A stretch of DNA of 64,000 bases, from positions 63,674,001 to 63,738,000 of the forward strand of contig OX597822.1 of NCBI GenBank assembly GCA_951406725.2, written 5' to 3'. Each line of letters starts with the position of its first letter. The stretch's first letter is position 1. Positions 4,213-45,716 of the stretch are shown here, in pieces. This DNA is from Octopus vulgaris (lineage: Eukaryota). A program made the translations under genes and the position numbers. The notes below the pieces were generated by a model. It was given only the letters and a program-made list of their open reading frames with translations. It was not told the origin of the DNA and searched no databases.

Positions 4213-6472
4213 TAGCCCCCCATCCACCCACCCACTTGTAACACCCTCACCACCATCAGGTTGTGCCTCTGTCGCCGCTGCTCCCGACGCCAGTACGAGC
4301 ACTTCAGTCAATTCCACCACCACCAACAACAACAGCAACACTAATAATAATATTACGACTGCTATTCTATCAACGTCGTTACCACCACCACCACCACCAC
4401 CACCACCACCACCATCATCTTAGCCTCTTCCACCAGATTCCACCCCTACCATCATCAATATCCCCACCATCATTATCTTAGCCACTTTCATCACATACCA
4501 TCACCACCACCACCACCTCTGTACTCATGATCCAGTCTTGCTAAATAAAATGGTTATAAGGGATCTGAATTTATGCGAAAAGTTAAAAGTTATTAAATGG
4601 GCGAAATATAGAAGAATATTTTTTAACATCAACTTAAACCATTGTAAATATCAGAGATATTTTTATAAATAGTTTCTAAATATGTCTGATATGCATTTAA
4701 AAAAAAATTGCCCTAATTCGTTTGTTATTGGTATGTGGAATTATAACAAACAAAAACTAAATCTTGTTTCGTTTCATATATCTTGTAATATCTATATATT
4801 TCTTTTGCGAATTATTTATAACTTTGAATAAAGCAAGTACATACATTATAAACCACATCTCAGTATTTGTATGATGTAAAGAAAATTGAGATCTTGGTGT
4901 TGTTCTTTCGTTATTGGTACGTGTAATTATATAACAACGAAAACTAAATCGTGTTTCGTTTTATGATTTCGGTTTTTGTATATTTCTTTCGCGTATTATT
5001 TACAACTTTGAATAAACACTAATTATACAATACAAATCGTATTCCAGTCTTTACACGATTTATAAAAAATTGAGATCATGGTAATTTTAAAAATAATTTC
5101 TGGTAATTTTTAAATAATCTTAACAACGTAAATCACAATATACACAAATTTTTAATATTGTAATCCAGAAAATTATATCAAAGAATAAGCAGTTGTGCAT
5201 TTGTCGCAAAAAAGCGAAACAAAATAAGGAACCACCCCACAAAAAAAAAACCCCCTTTGCAGAATCCTAATTTTTTAAATGAAGCAAATTACCAATAAAT
5301 TGCAAGGTTATTTCCCAATTTCAATTAATGAAGTTAGATTATATACATAATTTTCTTTCTCTTTGCTTATACTACAGAAACAAACATTTGTGCTTGGCTA
5401 GTTTGACGAAGTGAAACTGGTACATTAAAAACGTGAAATCGGGACATTAAAAATAATACTACAAACGCAAAGTGAACATGTTCGCTCTGAGTTCAAATCT
5501 CACCGAAGTCAACTTTGCTTTTTTTCACTTTCTTTCAAGGGTCGATAGAAAAAAAGCACGTACGAGGTTTCCAGCTTGAGCATACCATTCCTCTTATCCT
5601 CTTCTCCTTCACACTAATCTGTGCGGCTCCGTAATGGGTGATGGCCACTAAATTCACCTACTGACAGTACCATCTTAAGGCATGGACACACTGGGCAATT
5701 TATCCAGGAGCCTCTCGGGTCTAGGGGCTCAATTTGGATGGATCTATATATGCTGTGGCTTGCTGTCAATAAATAAATGATATCGGGCCCAGTGCATAGA
5801 TTCTCCCGTGGGTGGGTCTTATAATACTGTTCAGAGATAAGGAAAACTTTCAAAGCCCCTGATACTAACATATTCACGTGCATTTGTGTAATATGCTTTG
5901 CATAAATGGGGCAAAATTTCAATAAAAGGGCCAAGATAATTAAAATTAGATCTGAATAAGGTGTTGTTAGGTTATATAAGAAAAACACTAGTATGATCAT
6001 AAAATGTCCACCACAATCATCATCATTACCATCAGCGCTACAACAACCACAACCACCGTCGTCACCACCACCGCCGCCGCCACCACCACCACCACCACCA
6101 CCACCACCACCACCACAGTTATGTGTTTGTGATTAAAAGTCCTTTAAATTTTGGAGTTTCTGTAATCTAAATTCTCCCTCCATCCGAACGACCTTCTCTC
6201 CAGTGCGCACCCCCCCCACCTCACCAATCTGTTATACCCCGCCCCTTTCATCGAACTTCCTTCAATCTCCCCCCCATTCTTTCTCCCTCCCTCCTTCTCA
6301 TTCTTTCTTTCTTTCTTTCTCTTTCTTCTCTTTCAGTAAAAGCTTGCCTCCAATAGTTTTCTATTTTCTTATCTCCACCACCTCATATCGTTACATCGAG
6401 TTCCTGTTATCGATATTTCTCAAACCTTCATTGATCTCTATCTCTCCCCGCCCTACCCCACCCCCACCTCGC

Positions 6473-24544: not shown

Positions 24545-24790
24545 ATCCTGGGGTTTTGTTTTGTTTAGTAATCTGGGTGTACACTCCTACCATGATGACA
24601 CAACCAGCAAATAGGAAATTGAATATACTCTTTATAGAGGTTATTAAGTTCAAATTATTAATAACAACAAAAATAGCATGTAACAATGTTATTTCACTTA
24701 CAGTTCTATATTTAAGAGATGAGGAATTATGTGCATTATTTACATTATTATTACATTTGACGGATATTTGTCCTCATCTTGTTTGTTGTT

Positions 24791-24836
24791 AATACAACGT
24801 TTCGGCTAATATACCCTCCAGCCTTCATCAGGTGTC
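24791..24836 (-). ncRNA. Minimal type I hammerhead ribozyme in a tRNA-headed element
   Basis: Minus strand reads GACAC-CTGATGA-A-GGCTG..TAGCC-GAAACGT-T-GTATT. Stem III is the palindrome ACGT; stem I has one mismatch. Confidence 0.65.
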
Positions 24837-24895
24837 TTGAGGAAATTTCGAACCTGGGTTCTCATTCCTAAGGTATTTTTAGATGTTACTATTAA

Positions 24896-24933
<38 letters not shown>

Positions 24934-25063
24934 TCACTGCTTGGAATCACACTCGGAATCTTGGGGTTAGTAACCCGCGCTCTTAACCACTATGCCATAT
25001 GCCTGTAGGTTAAGAGCATGGGCTACTAACACCAAGATACCGAGTTTGATTTCAGGCAGTGAT

Positions 25064-25113
<50 letters not shown>

Positions 25114-25165
25114 CAACATCAAAAAATATCTTAGGAATGGGAACCCAGGTTCGAAATTTCCCCAA

Positions 25166-25210
25166 GACACCTGATGAAGGCTGAAGGTATATCAGCCGAA
25201 ACGTATTAAC
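25166..25210 (+). ncRNA. Hammerhead motif of the same family, with the stem I 3' arm damaged
   Basis: GACAC-CTGATGA-A-GGCTG..CAGCC-GAAACGTA-TTAAC. A 3-nt deletion relative to the 24.8 kb copy removes stem I pairing. Confidence 0.6.
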
Positions 25211-26012
25211 AACAACAAACACGATGAGGACGAACGTCCGTCAAATGTAAATAATGTAAATAATGTCCAAGTACGATAATGACAACTTACTGTTTGTTCT
25301 AAATTGTAACATATATATGTATGTATGTGTGTATGTATGTATGTATTTGTGTGTTTGTTGATGTTTGTCCCCGTAACCTAGCGGTTCGGCAAAAGAGATT
25401 GATAGAGTAAGTACTAGGCTTACAAAGAATAAGTCCTGGGGGCCGATTTGGTTGACTGTAACCCTTTAAGTTACAGCATGGCCGCATTCAAATAACTGAA
25501 ACTAGTAAACGAAAAATAACAGAACAAAACATAGTCTTTGGAATTAAGTTTCTCCATTAGCAACACAATAATTGAGAAATATATACAGTACAGATCATTA
25601 AGTCCAAAGTGCTCAGGCATGGCTGTGTGGTTAAGAAGGCTCACTTTGGAACAACACGGCTTTGGGTTCAATCCCACTGTGTAGTACATTGAGCAAGTGT
25701 CTTCTACTGGCCAACCAATGCCTTGTGAGTGAATTTGTGAGATGGAAGTTTGTTAGATGTGTAGATGCCTGTCATGTGTGTGACTGAGTTGCCCACCCCT
25801 GCCAGTTGAGAGCCTGTGTTGGTTTGTGTATGTCTCCATAACTTAGTGGTTCTGCAAAAGAACCTGATAAAATAAATACCAAATTAAAGACAATTAGCTC
25901 TGTAATTCATGGTAAAACTTTTTTCTTTGGTTTATAATCACATATACATGCATACATATGTATTTGTACATATATATACATACATTTATGTATATATGTG
26001 TGTGTGTGTGTG

Positions 26013-36521: not shown

Positions 36522-37213
36522 TGTTGATTTGTCTGCCTAAACCCTTGGTGGCATTTGAACTTGGAACATAAAGGTAGACAAAATGCCACTGAGAATGTTG
36601 GGAATGCTAACGATTCTGCCGGCTTGCCACTTTGAGATATAGCTGATGCTAGTGCCACCTATCTGGCTCCCATGCCAATGGCATGCAAAAAGCACCATTT
36701 GAGCATGGTTGATGCCAGTGCTGCCTGACCGGCCCCTGTGCCAGTGGAATGTAAAAAGCACAGCTTCTACACTCTCAGAGTGGTTGGCATTAGGAAGGGC
36801 ATCCAGCTGTAGAAACCTTGTCAGATCAGATTGGAGCCTGGCGCAGACTCCTGGCTTGCCAGTCGTCAGTCAAACCGTCCAACCCACTCCAGCATGGAAA
36901 GCAGACGTTAGACAATGATGATGATGATGATGAACAGAATCTAAAAACTAGGTTAAACTCCCTTTTGGATTGGAAAAGTTGAAAGCCTTTGATTATTTTT
37001 CTGCCCAAAATATTTTTTTAACCTAACATTTGGATACTGTCATCAATAGCTTTATCTACTTTGAGTTCTATAGTAAAATAAAAACAAAACAAATAATTGT
37101 CGAGACTCTGTTTGCCAATAACTTAACCAGTCATCTAATCTGTTGCCATTTCAGACAATAACACTTTCTTAAACTTCCACAAATTTTTGATTCTGTTTAA
37201 TCTCTAATTTCAG

Positions 37214-38837
37214 GTTGTATGCTCCAGGAGAATCTAGACCCTATTTGTTCGAAGGAGATTCTACAGTTCATCATTTTCCAGTAGCAAACTTGTCGCACAG
37301 CACAGTGAGAGTGAGTGTGACGGCTTCTCAAAGAATGAAGAACATACCTATTCTTCTGTGTCAAAATCCGATGAGTAGTGTACTAACTAGTTCTACAATC
37401 ATTACAGATCAGCTTCACAAAAGCAAACCGTCTAAATTTCCACCTGACAATTCAGAACCGTCTCGAAGAAAAAAGACTTTGACAACTGCTGCAATTTGTG
37501 ATAAAAGTAATAATAGCGACGTAAAAAAATTTAATCCAAAGAAAATATCATCAACAACAACAACAATTTCGAACAGACTCAATAATTTAACACAATCCAA
37601 ATCAAAAACTAGTTCTATTAATAAGAAGGAACAACCACAGACTATAAGTGCGCCATCTAGTTCAGTTTCGCCAGCAGTGTCCTACAGTAAGATTCCTTCA
37701 CAGCAGAAGAACTTGTCTTTTTCTTCGACTCGCTCTGTAATGAGTGTTGAAGAGGATTCCTTAAAACTAGCATCAAAGTTTGCTAAACTAGAGGTGAAGT
37801 CCAGCAATAATTGTACATTTTCAACAGCATCGCGGAATATGTTCTCAGAAAAGCCTCTTGTCTTTCACACAAAGGATGATCTCGATAACGACCAGTCAGA
37901 AAACAAAACACCGGTACTTCACAGCCCTAAGGTTTTATTGACAAACTGTAAGTCTGGTGAACAGTCGTATTACACAAAACAGAAAAGAAACAATTCTGGC
38001 TCAGACGTCAAGTGGAATACAAAAACCGAGTGGTATCCAGAATTATTGTGTCAGCCTGGCATGCAGGAATTGACCAAACCTCTAACATCAGACCAAATAG
38101 AAGCGTATCTTGCGAGTCTACCAACCTGGGGTACGTCGTTACCCAAGGTTAGACGAACATGCCTTGAAAACATTCCAGTTACGAAATGCAAATTTCAAAT
38201 CGGTGATGAGCTATTTGATAAAGACACTGAGAAAAGTATTTCTTCCACAGTTAATCCATTATCTAAGACAGCGTTATCTTCATATGTAGGTTTCTCATCA
38301 GAAAATAAGTCAGAAATTACATCTAGTGTAACTTCAGCTAAAAAGAGAGGACTTGCCACCAAAGACAAATACGACACAAATAACATTTCCCGAAACCTAC
38401 ACGAAGATTTTAACCACAATAAAACAGGTATGAAAAGGTCAGCAGCTGTCTGGATGGATCTTTCTCAAGACATTAACGAAAACAGAACAGAGGCTACTTA
38501 TTCAGCCAATAACAATTCTTTGAAAGATTCTACCAGTTCAGTGGTTGATGAGACACGGTCACAAGATATCAGTGACCGTTCTAATAGAGTGGACTGTTGT
38601 GAAACAGCAATCAAAAAAGATGATGCAACAAAAACAGCCGAAGAGAAAAGTGATGTATTTCTCGAAGCTGACAATTGTAGCATTGTCAATGGTAGTAAAG
38701 ACTATGACAATAGCAAAGAAAATGAAAGTAAAGAACATTTCAACGACATAACCAAAGATCCAGTGAGTCCCAATCAAGGAAAGCGATCTCTTTATGCAAC
38801 TATTCTCAGGAAAGACTTCAATTCTGAATTTGAAAAG
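37214..38837 (+). CDS. FAM214A: ATOS/FAM214 homologue, large coding exon 4 (1624 bp)
   Basis: tttcag acceptor, then a 547-aa open frame starting LYAPGE...HHFPVANLSHSTVRVSV (cf. recalled HVFPVPNVSHNVALKVSV), followed by an S/T/K/N-rich low-complexity region. Donor AAG|gtttgt at 38838. Phase 2 to 0. Confidence 0.9.
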
Positions 38838-39166
38838 GTTTGTATAAAGATTGTATAAGGGTTCTCTTGTGTTGTGGTTTTGTTAGAAATTCTTCCAAGC
38901 TTATGTTTCAACAGTGAATGTGCATGGCATTGTGGTTAAGCTGTTGATCTCATAAACAATAGGTTGTGGGTTCAATTCTTGGACAGGGCAGCGTGTTGTG
39001 TCCTTGAGCAGGGTACTTCATTACATGCTACTCTACAACACCTGGGAGTTAATTCTGTGACAATCTAGCACCTAGTTCAGAGGAAGGGGTAAGTCTTGTA
39101 TTCAGTTTAAATGTCCATGGTAATCTGGATAAGCTCTGAGCAACAGGCTTGAGGGTTTTTTTCTTT

Positions 39167-40236: not shown

Positions 40237-40670
40237 AGTTAGTTAGTTAGTTAATTTGGCTCAAAAGCAAATAGCAAGGCCATGTAGGGGGACATGGAGT
40301 TAAGTACAGGGTGGTGTTCATGTAAAGAGTTCAGGCCACTTGAGGTCAAGGGAGGCTTTGAACAAAGCGGTCGTCGGCATCTTCACCATCTCGTCTGGCA
40401 GCTTGTTCCACGGATCCGCAACCCGGACGGAGAAAGCTCCTCTCCTTCGATTGAGATGAAATCGTCGCAGGTAGAGCTTTTCGGAATGACCCCGCAGCCG
40501 ATGCTCTGGAGCAGGAGTGAAGAACAGCTCTTTCGAGAGGTTACACTTTCCGCTCATGATGTTGTGGGCGAGAATGAGATCACCACGGCAGCGGCGTTTT
40601 TCTAGAGAATAAAGGACGAGCGTCCTCAGCCTTTCTTCATAGGACAAATTTTTGAGACCATGAACCATGC
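40237..40670 (-). mobile_element. CR1-clade LINE 3' fragment (ORF2 C-terminus, 3' UTR and (TAAC)n tail)
   Basis: ORF 40318-40695 encodes GLKNLSYEERLRTLVLYSLEKRRCRGDLI...RLRGHSEKL...FSVRVADPWNKLP, a typical CR1 ORF2 tail. ttagttagttag repeat at about 40237-40253. Confidence 0.88.
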
Positions 40671-40781
40671 AGCATGGAAGGTGTTTATAAGCCATTTAAA
40701 AACGCAAAACCCGTTAGATTCACTTCAAAATATTTTCGTCGCTTTGAAACCGCGACCTGTTCATTGACAAAATTTTGTGCT

Positions 40782-41910: not shown

Positions 41911-43127
41911 GAAAATGAACTTTCTTATCTTCCATTTTAAAGGGTTACAAAAGAGTGAAATGCCTGAAACAAATAAAAGAGGAAAAGAGTATCACACCGA
42001 GTGTATCAATTCTGGGGTTTATGTGACCCTTTCATTACCACATTTCTGTAGAAATACACGGCTTTTGTCAACTTCACCTTTCATCCTTTTAGGGTTGCTA
42101 AAATAAGTACCAGCTAAGATTCCAAGTTCAATTCCAAGTAGTGACCTGAATAATAACAACAACAATAACAACAACAACATCGAAAAAAACCTTAGGTTCG
42201 AAATTTCCCCAAGATACCTGAAAAATATCCATCTAATGTAAATAATGAAAATAATGTAAATAATGAATGAATAACTTTGCTGAGAATGGTGTTCATTTAC
42301 TACCATCACATGATGTCTAGACAAGAGTAAACACACACACACACACACACACAACTTCTTTGGAGTTTCTGGCTACTAAACTCACTCACAAGATTTTGGT
42401 AATCCTGTTGTTTTTGTAGAAGAAATTTGCCCAGGGTGCCATGAAGAGGGACTGAACCCAAAAACACATGGTTGAGAAGTAAGCTTCATAACCACACAGC
42501 CATACCTGTGCATGACTATTATTATCAAATATTATTTCGAAAATAGATTAAGAAAATATTTCATAGTCAATGGGAAAATAACATTTCCGACTTCCATTTT
42601 GATAACCGATATAATTGGAGATCTTCCTGCAGTTAATAACAGTGTATTCCATATTTTGAGACTAATATTTCCCTTGATTATTACATTATTTCTGACTTTT
42701 ATTGGATAAAGCTTGACCAGATGTTTTTGGTAAACTGACCAAAAGCAAAAACAAAAAAAAAAGGTTAATATTCTCTGCAAGTCAAAACAAAATCAATATC
42801 TTATTACCGTATTGCTGAAGGTATTGAGATATTATTAGCTATTGTCATTGTGATATATTATTCGTGCAGGGATATAAGCTCTCTAACAGCAGGATAAATA
42901 TCGAATAGAATGGCTGGGGAAAAATACTCGTGGACACCTGCTGCATGGAAAACTAATAGCAAAATGGGTGCTAACATACTTATCATATTTGATGGCCTGT
43001 GAGATGCATGTGAGATGCTATACTGTGAGATGTGAGATGCTATACTGTGAGATGTGAGATGCTATACTTTTGTAAAATAAATTACCACTAAAATAAGGTT
43101 TTATTTCTTCCACTTACCTCTCTTTAC

Positions 43128-45496: not shown

Positions 45497-45716
45497 TGGC
45501 GTAGTGGTTAAGAGCGTGGGCTACTAACCTCAAGATTCCGAGTTCGATTCCAGGCAGTGACCTGAATAATAATAACAGTAATAATAATAATAATAATAAT
45601 AATAATAGTAATAATAATAATAACAACATCGAAATATACCTTAGGAATGAAAACCCAGGTTCGAAGTTTCCCCAAGACACCTGATGAAGGTTGGAGGATA
45701 TATCAGCCAAAACGTG
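45497..45716 (+). mobile_element. tRNA-head/(AAT)n/hammerhead element, 3'-truncated
   Basis: Box A TGGCGTAGTGG, box B GAGTTCGATTCC, (AAT)n, then GACAC-CTGATGA-AGGTTG..CAGCC-AAAACGTG with GAAA mutated. A further partial copy lies at about 42113-42262. Confidence 0.7.

What the first reader, a model, noticed from the sequence alone, without database searches (positions are those of the whole stretch)
45497..45716. SINE-like element made of a tRNA head, an (AAT)n spacer and a hammerhead ribozyme
Seen: four copies (24699-25003 -, 25008-25267 +, about 42113-42262 partial, 45497-45716 +) share one layout. Pol III box A (TGGCGTAGTGG) and box B (GAGTTCGATTCC) are followed by an (AAT)n tract and then GACAC-CTGATGA-A-GGCTG..CAGCC-GAAACGT. 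Known: minimal type I hammerheads with a palindromic stem III are typical of Penelope-like elements and retrozymes, and the schistosome Sm-alpha repeat also joins a tRNA-type promoter to a hammerhead. Inference: this is a non-autonomous, Pol III-driven, self-cleaving retroelement of octopus, possibly mobilised by Penelope-like machinery. I do not recall it being described in cephalopods, but cannot check.
Basis: partly seen in the sequence, partly recalled or inferred. Interest (0 to 1): 0.85.

Follow-up and report, generated by a model that had tools for sequence, protein, structure and literature searches.

The report
Penelope retrotransposon with tRNA-type promoter

Summary
The layout is real, but it is not a stand-alone SINE. 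The unit is the pseudo-LTR (pLTR) of an autonomous Penelope/Poseidon retroelement with tens of thousands of mostly short copies. In 27 of 30 loci picked by the GIY-YIG endonuclease, the tRNA-like head follows the stop codon (29-nt spacer in the majority sequence). In full-length tandems the same unit supplies the ATG, with the minimal hammerhead inside the reading frame, as in Anolis Poseidon. Copies show known Penelope marks: head-to-head pairs (50 of 58 neighbours), target duplications, and a ~32-bp tail on one arm only (41 of 47 pairs). The ribozyme at the given coordinates is dead, and Penelope hammerheads are known. The tRNA head is what looks new. 71 of 82 arms that reach it stop at -8..+1. 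Four of five template-jump junctions start at G(-6), 13 nt before a perfect box A, where Pol III would likely initiate. The 2.4-kb ORF majority has no TTTT (weak alone), and one distant Penelope repeats both traits. Pol III use is inferred; RNA-seq was uninformative.

The parts
45497..45716 (+). Copy 4: pLTR of the Penelope family, 5'-truncated at box A, 3'-cut inside the ribozyme
45497..45507 (+). Pol III box A (tRNA position +8 onward), consensus-perfect
   Evidence: sequence; box score
45541..45551 (+). Pol III box B at tRNA-like spacing (43-44 nt start to start)
   Evidence: sequence
45566..45627 (+). (AAT/AAC)n tract between head and ATG; its length varies between copies
45647..45649 (+). 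ATG that opens the Penelope ORF in full-length copies (frame M-R-x-Q-V-R-N-F-P-K-T ...)
   Evidence: L212, L239; BLAST of the ORF onto the window
45676..45716 (+). Minimal hammerhead remnant: stem I 5' strand, CUGAUGA, extra A, stem II; G12 mutated at 45709; stem I 3' strand absent
24699..25009 (-). Copy 1: long arm of an inverted pair; starts at about -5 of the tRNA head and carries the tail
24791..24836 (-). Near-intact minimal hammerhead of copy 1 (GUU cleavage triplet, one stem I mismatch)
24700..24731 (-). Optional ~32-bp Penelope tail (ORF +124 to +155) between the two 3' end sites
24998..25009 (.). Junction of the inverted pair at the palindromic 5' boundary of the pLTR
25008..25266 (+). 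Copy 2: short arm of the pair, box A missing, 3-nt in-frame deletion at the cleavage site, no tail
42116..42264 (+). Copy 3: decayed pLTR with internal deletions; ribozyme lost

Best explanation
The unit is the pseudo-LTR of an autonomous Penelope/Poseidon retrotransposon, and its captured tRNA(Arg)-like head likely acts as an internal RNA polymerase III promoter that sets the RNA 5' end at G(-6). Shown: the order is [head-(AAT)n-ATG-hammerhead-tail]-RT-GIY-YIG-stop-29 nt-[head ...]. Copies end at two sites (ATG+~125 and ATG+155), begin mostly at -7..+1, and come as inverted pairs inside one target duplication with one long and one short end. Inferred by analogy with Anolis Poseidon (PMC11167929): the protein nicks both strands of AT-rich DNA and starts reverse transcription inside the RNA at the two tail-bounding sites. 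When it does so in the 5' leader, the cDNA runs only about 300 nt to the RNA 5' end, which gives the SINE-looking copies. The two cDNA ends would then join at the GCCC/GGGC palindrome or jump to another RNA. The hammerhead is predicted to cut only as a dimer or with protein help and is not needed to make these ends. Whether Pol III also makes the full 2.6-kb coding RNA is open (about 40%).
For: ORF linkage: head within 150 nt after the endonuclease stop in 27 of 30 loci (one is the query's own locus), body or ribozyme downstream in 21 of 30. One natural copy has a 569-aa open frame with RT (RVT_1 E 2.7e-6, below gathering). It is 40% identical over 575 aa to a protein with a precomputed GIY-YIG family. 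Tandems with the unit upstream of the ORF: L212, L239, L357, L378, L382. The ribozyme is read in frame, and relative P0003 (55% identical) keeps the same peptide around it. Neighbouring arms: -/+ 50, -/- 4, +/+ 3, +/- 1. Direct repeats of at least 5 nt flank 27 of 46 pairs, against 5.5% of mismatched pairs. Tails: one long and one short in 41 of 47 pairs, both short in 6, both long in 0, P=1e-7. 5' ends: in the four sets not chosen for the ORF, 71 of 82 arms that reach the head start stop at -8..+1 and 11 run into the ORF (my count; matches out to -19 were counted as palindrome artefacts). In the same-strand jump class, 4 of 5 junctions start at G(-6) with A, not the master's T, at -7 (two of the four are arms of one locus). 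The A+B box score is 19-27 bits in 4 of our copies, against 11 or less in 22 of 23 control Penelope UTRs. There is no T4+ run in the 2,424-nt ORF majority or in the pLTR, against 3.2 per kb in 11 control ORFs of like T content. The only one of those 11 with none, L273 (38% identical, not sister in the tree), is also the one control with A/B boxes in its pLTR (20.9 bits, 0 of 100 shuffles reach it).
Against: There is no direct RNA evidence. In two raw RNA-seq runs both strands were covered about equally, 79-83% of reads ran on into unlike sequence, and no start or end pile-up was listed. The lack of TTTT is significant only against a base shuffle (0 vs 4.2, P=0.008). It is not significant against Markov nulls (P=0.10, 0.20) or a synonymous-codon shuffle (0 vs 1.9, P=0.11), and G4 runs are absent too. 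Two of 29 intact control ORFs are T4-free, and one of them (L300) has no boxes. L273 has two T4 runs early in its ORF, and its tRNA likeness is weak by profile (E 1.4). The 5' boundary coincides with a small palindrome that could itself attract junctions. The jump class is only 3-4 independent events. Pol III RNA is uncapped and usually short (recalled; also argued in PMC10886601).
Confidence: 0.7

Rival explanations
1. Ordinary Penelope pLTR into which a tRNA-SINE head with its (AAT)n tail once inserted. The element is Pol II-driven or read through from hosts, the boxes are a passenger, and 5' ends pile up because the GCCC/GGGC palindrome favours fold-back or end joining.
For: Head plus (AAT)n looks like a simple SINE with a microsatellite tail. 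The modal boundary (-7) in the inverted class is the edge of the palindrome. T4 depletion fails the stricter nulls. The characterised Drosophila Penelope promoter has Inr/DPE-type elements (PMC2377424 passages). RNA-seq looks like passive transcription.
Against: Arms joined to unrelated flank (25 of 26) or to same-strand ORF pieces (5 of 5) also start at -7..0, where no fold-back is involved. The boxes are consensus-perfect while the cloverleaf is lost. No upstream promoter sequence is retained in L239 or L378, which begin at -2 and -4 ahead of the ORF.
Confidence: 0.2
2. One reading: short copies are a true non-autonomous SINE. Solo pLTRs are transcribed by Pol III and re-mobilised in trans by the Penelope protein, forming their own lineage.
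For: Short copies outnumber ORF-attached ones roughly 6 to 1 (71 vs 11). They keep the promoter boxes, and long-tailed ones keep one RT start site. They are slightly less diverged (median 4.8% vs 5.7%, P=0.03, but the short set was chosen by exact-match patterns).
Against: No diagnostic variant separates 72 short or body-only copies from 28 ORF-attached copies (32 variants tested, best P=0.04). Anolis Poseidon needs ORF nt 1-172 as template (PMC11167929), while solos here end at +155 or earlier. All short copies can arise directly from the 5' leader of the autonomous RNA.
Confidence: 0.15
3. Retrozyme or Sm-alpha-like element: ribozyme cleavage releases monomers that circularise and are reverse-transcribed into tandem arrays.
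For: The hammerhead core is intact in the family majority. Position 7, the free core position, is the only core site with a common variant (T 136, A 31 of 172).
Against: Only 7 of 58 neighbours are same-strand. Ends avoid the cut site (5 of 434 arm ends). No read pile-up at the cut site. Copies lacking the site (3-nt deletion) are about 10% of reads (396 of 4039, 337 of 3205).
Confidence: 0.04

Closest known systems
Poseidon of Anolis carolinensis (PAc), Penelope/Poseidon clade (PMC11167929; main text read)
   Same: Single RT + C-terminal GIY-YIG ORF; pLTR tandems; hammerhead overlapping the ORF start; two 3' end sites about 110-155 nt into the ORF bounding a tail; both strands extended; no ends at the ribozyme cut site.
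   Different: No tRNA-derived segment is mentioned in the text I read; its promoter is only described as likely in the pLTR.
Minimal hammerheads of metazoan Penelope-like elements (PMC4209133; parts 1-2 of 4 read)
   Same: [quoted passage not shown]
   Different: Nothing in the ribozyme itself; that paper does not report a tRNA head in the parts read.
Drosophila virilis Penelope (PMC2377424; passages)
   Same: Promoter lies inside the pLTR upstream of the ORF; partial tandems, inverted copies, 34-bp tail.
   Different: Its promoter has Inr/DPE elements and an intron (Pol II type). Here the start maps 13 nt before a box A; I saw no sign of an intron but did not test for one.
TRIMp3: Cassandra, Helenus, Ajax (PMC10886601; passages)
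   Same: A small-RNA-derived Pol III promoter inside the terminal repeat of a retrotransposon, proposed to arise by SINE insertion.
   Different: Those are short non-autonomous LTR elements, and the author states that their autonomous partners must use Pol II. Here the repeat belongs to the autonomous, protein-coding element and is a pLTR.
Schistosome Sm-alpha/Sj-alpha repeats and metazoan retrozymes (PMC6765202, PMC7229834; passages)
   Same: Pol III-type promoter plus hammerhead (Sm-alpha); type I hammerhead in a 170-400-nt unit.
   Different: They use canonical hammerheads, occur as head-to-tail repeats processed by the ribozyme, and are not parts of an ORF-bearing element.
Octopus tRNA-SINEs OK, OR1, OR2 (Ohshima and Okada 1994; not held; known to me only by recall and by citation)
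   Same: tRNA-like heads in an octopus-type repeat landscape; I recall them as tRNA-Arg-related with trinucleotide tracts.
   Different: Could not compare sequences. OR2 is listed as a CORE-SINE (PMC4758252 passage). This unit may be catalogued as OK, OR1 or an unclassified SINE without the Penelope link.

Membership tests
Penelope-like element, Penelope/Poseidon clade | Single ORF with RT and C-terminal GIY-YIG endonuclease carrying CCHH | tested here: met
   569-aa natural open frame L217; RVT_1 E 2.7e-6; aligned through the endonuclease to P0069, which carries PF01541. Pfam GIY-YIG did not hit our own sequence.
Penelope-like element, Penelope/Poseidon clade | Partial tandems forming pLTRs on both sides of the ORF | tested here: met
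   L212, L239, L357, L382
Penelope-like element, Penelope/Poseidon clade | Inverted 5'-truncated partner and a 30-40-bp tail at one end only | tested here: met
   50 of 58 neighbours -/+; 41 of 47 pairs with one tail
Penelope-like element, Penelope/Poseidon clade | Minimal hammerhead in the pLTR near the ORF start | tested here: met
   Predicted cut at ATG+70; same topology in 15 families tabulated
Penelope-like element, Penelope/Poseidon clade | No Zn-finger-like linker between RT and EN (unlike Neptune/Nematis) | tested here: met
   By eye on the translations and the pairwise alignment; no named reference elements in the tree
tRNA-derived SINE | tRNA-related head with box A and box B at the 5' end | tested here: met
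tRNA-derived SINE | Transcribed by Pol III | not testable with these tools
   Inferred from boxes and the mapped 5' end; RNA-seq uninformative
tRNA-derived SINE | A family separate from its autonomous partner, sharing at most a 3' part | tested here: not met
   The whole unit, head included, is part of the autonomous element; no separate variants
tRNA-derived SINE | 3' end in poly(A) or a simple repeat | tested here: not met
   3' ends at ATG+123-129 and +152-155; the microsatellite is internal
Retrozyme / Sm-alpha-like | Head-to-tail monomers whose RNA ends are set by the ribozyme | tested here: not met
Retrozyme / Sm-alpha-like | Abundant circular RNA | not testable with these tools
   Only standard RNA-seq and contigs were available
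Hammerhead ribozyme (minimal type I) | Conserved core with paired stems I and II and an NUH triplet | tested here: met
   Met in the family majority and in 36 of 172 copies; not met in the copy at 45497-45716. Stems covary across families (most controls were found by requiring pairing, so partly circular).
Hammerhead ribozyme (minimal type I) | Self-cleavage | not testable with these tools
   No assay possible; Rfam models do not score it

The most novel reading that the evidence does not exclude
An autonomous, protein-coding retrotransposon is transcribed end to end by RNA polymerase III from a captured tRNA promoter in its pLTR, and its 2.4-kb ORF has been purged of Pol III terminators. The same solution arose independently in at least one other Penelope lineage (L273). 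This would be a Pol III mRNA/template and a direct intermediate between LINE-like elements and SINEs.
Probability: 0.35. Interest if true: 0.85.

Novelty: new variant of a known kind. Interest (0 to 1): 0.62.

Why it matters
It corrects a likely annotation trap: tens of thousands of 'tRNA-SINE' copies in this genome are Penelope pLTRs. The copies also act as a genomic record of Penelope integration. Inverted pairs inside one target duplication, with strictly one long and one short start site, fit twin priming at the two RT start sites found in vitro for Anolis Poseidon, and template-jump junctions map the RNA 5' end to a single base. If Pol III drives the element, it breaks the usual assumption that autonomous retroelements need Pol II, shows one route by which SINEs could be born from their partners, and is directly testable.

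Tried and rejected
Rfam and ARAGORN: no tRNA or hammerhead hit; minimal hammerheads and decayed heads fall below these models. Single-strand folds of the window copies are not better than shuffles (z -1.6 to +0.7), and the script's cofold did not give the stem III dimer, so folding energy is no evidence either way. Run search: no RNA holder listed among indexed runs; the lay gave no start or end pile-up. T4 depletion did not hold under Markov and codon nulls (the 'both' row is out of frame and was ignored). My first box regex could not match our own head and was replaced. Orientation errors were corrected. No relatives were found in viral contigs or with a single-protein metagenome query. No close solved structure exists. 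The tree is the quick version and only shows that L273 is not sister to this family. A separate short-copy subfamily was not found. No target duplication was evident around the window's own pair. Ohshima and Okada 1994 and Lunse 2017 are not held. Dfam, Repbase, SINEBase and the Zenodo library of PMC13282606 could not be consulted.

Full report
Observation. The four copies are present and align. The copy at 45497-45716 has perfect boxes A and B, an (AAT)n tract and a hammerhead remnant. Core G12 is A (45709) and the 3' strand of stem I is missing, so this copy cannot be an active ribozyme. Copy 1 is near intact, copy 2 has a 3-nt deletion at the cut site, and copy 3 lacks the ribozyme. Rfam and ARAGORN report nothing relevant. 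The family is large: 10,513 exact matches of one 23-mer against 0 for the control. Sixty evenly placed 10-kb stretches held 11 arms in 9 insertions, about 50,000 arms in 2.8 Gb with wide error. Copies are 3-11% from the majority, median about 5.5%. Contigs from runs with two species labels span endonuclease, spacer and head, and raw reads from a third cover the same stretch. I did not determine the species.

It is a Penelope pLTR. Two of the first 30 loci had the end of a GIY-YIG-type endonuclease directly upstream of the head. Searching with that peptide gave 4,340 candidates, 150 scored. Of the best 30, 27 have the head within 150 nt after the stop and 21 the body or ribozyme further on; the majority spacer is 29 nt. 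Walking upstream gave a natural 569-aa RT-endonuclease frame, 37-68% identical to many RT-endonuclease proteins and aligned through the C-x-C, H, H endonuclease region of one that carries PF01541. In tandems the same unit lies upstream and supplies the start codon. The frame runs from the ATG after the microsatellite through the hammerhead and the tail into the N-terminal domain (L212, L239), and a 55%-identical relative keeps the peptide encoded by the ribozyme. This is the architecture of Anolis Poseidon (PMC11167929, parts 1-2 of 4 read).

Insertion anatomy. Neighbouring arms are head-to-head in 50 of 58 cases. 27 of 46 pairs sit in a direct repeat of at least 5 nt (often 8-13), against 5.5% for mismatched flanks. 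3' ends fall at ATG+123-129 and ATG+152-155; 41 of 47 pairs have one of each and none has two long ends. Craig et al. describe inverted partners and a tail on one end as general Penelope features (PMC8557442, passages). With both strands extended and two RT start sites in vitro, I infer twin priming: one start site per strand, and cDNA ends joined at the palindrome around -7..+5.

Ribozyme. The majority has stem I GACAC/GUGUU, CUGANGA, one extra A, stem II GGCUG/CAGCC, GAAA, a CG palindrome and a GUU triplet. This is the minimal hammerhead defined for Penelope elements (PMC4209133, parts 1-2 of 4 read). Of 172 copies spanning it, 36 are intact; position 7 is the only core position with a common alternative. 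Fourteen other families, including a second one in this genome (779 pattern matches vs 76 control), keep the core and change the stems compensatorily (partly circular). Copy ends avoid the cut site (3 starts, 2 ends of 217 arms), in line with the Anolis result that cleavage is protein-assisted and dispensable for insertion in vitro. The ribozyme is real in form, known in kind, and not what shapes the copies.

The tRNA head. It matches this genome's tRNA-Arg best (z 7.6-8.0 among 26 distinct tRNA sequences, a partial set). The cloverleaf is lost and the boxes are kept. In the four sets not selected for the ORF, 71 of 82 arms that reach the head start stop at -8..+1 (my count), although ORF-attached copies share 330-1,600 bases upstream. 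One search sorted 133 such arms: 48 ORF-attached (the sets include ORF-selected loci), 54 joined to an inverted arm (mode -7), 26 with unrelated flank, and 5 preceded by a same-strand piece of the ORF's 5' part. The last are best read as template jumps from the RNA 5' end. Four start exactly at G(-6) with a non-master base at -7 (3 loci). A purine after a pyrimidine, 13 nt before box A, is where a type 2 Pol III promoter starts (recalled). Full-length L239 and ORF-leading L378 begin at -2 and -4.

Could Pol III make the whole RNA? The ORF majority and the pLTR have no run of four T. Twenty-nine intact control ORFs from metagenome and genome contigs have 236 against 144 expected, and 3.2 per kb at like T content. 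The statistical support is weak: P=0.008 by base shuffle, but 0.10-0.20 by Markov and 0.11 by codon shuffle. Of 23 control UTRs, only L273 has clear A/B boxes (20.9 bits, next 11.2). They are followed by a short AAT tract and a hammerhead in a tandem pLTR. Its RT-endonuclease region is T4-free but it has two T4 runs early in the ORF. It is not sister to our family, and closer relatives lack boxes, which suggests an independent capture. One case is suggestive only. The second hammerhead family of this genome has T-rich repeats and, by eye, no head. RNA-seq did not help: equal strands, mostly passenger reads, no pile-ups.

Is it also a SINE? Short and ORF-attached copies share variants at equal rates, and all short copies can come from the 5' leader of the autonomous RNA. 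It works like a SINE in having a tRNA head at the RNA 5' end and needing RT from a longer copy, but it fails membership on separateness and on the 3' end. Re-mobilisation of solo pLTRs is not excluded.

Literature. Nine searches found no paper describing a tRNA-derived segment or Pol III promoter in a Penelope pLTR, or this unit in cephalopods. The library lacks most subscription papers, Repbase and Dfam. The closest concept is TRIMp3 (PMC10886601, passages), restricted to non-autonomous LTR elements. PMC2377424, PMC6765202, PMC7229834, PMC4758252 and PMC8967140 were seen as passages only.

Verdict. Penelope pLTR: near certain (0.97). RNA 5' end set by a Pol III-type promoter: likely (0.7). 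Pol III making the coding RNA: possible (0.35-0.4). New variant of a known kind.

Noticed in passing
L273:1975-2230 and 4766-5022: A distant, intact tandem Penelope (2,791-bp unit) from a metagenome contig with box A, box B and a short AAT tract before its hammerhead, and a GC hairpin with a T4 loop just downstream; possibly an independent tRNA-headed Penelope.
   Followed up: partly
L241-L270 (own genome): A second minimal-hammerhead family group (4-bp stem II, T-rich repeats, often ending in (TA)n; 779 pattern matches vs 76 control), probably pLTRs of other Penelope families; stem I covaries between subgroups.
   Followed up: partly
L015, L018, L021, L190, L199, L205, L210: Many 5'-truncated copies start in the (AAT)n tract joined to the (AAT)n end of other repeats. 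The tract may serve as joining homology or as the ATT target that Poseidon endonuclease prefers, which would favour tandem formation.
   Followed up: no
window 25166-25207 and about 10% of reads: A 3-nt deletion removes the cleavage site but keeps the reading frame; it occurs in short and ORF-attached copies alike.
   Followed up: partly
L358, junction about 175 bases after the match: An A-run precedes the G(-6) template-jump junction, possibly a polyadenylated RNA 3' end.
   Followed up: no
window 37191-38858 +: A 555-codon stop-free frame of ordinary composition, probably a large exon of a host gene; copies 3 and 4 lie 3-7 kb downstream.
   Followed up: no
window 40318-40695 -: A 125-codon frame that reads like the C-terminus of a CR1-type LINE ORF2 (recalled likeness, not searched).
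   Followed up: no
L350-L353: Eukaryotic Penelope elements with hammerheads sit in contigs filed under bacterial and archaeal genome bins, probably host contamination.
   Followed up: no
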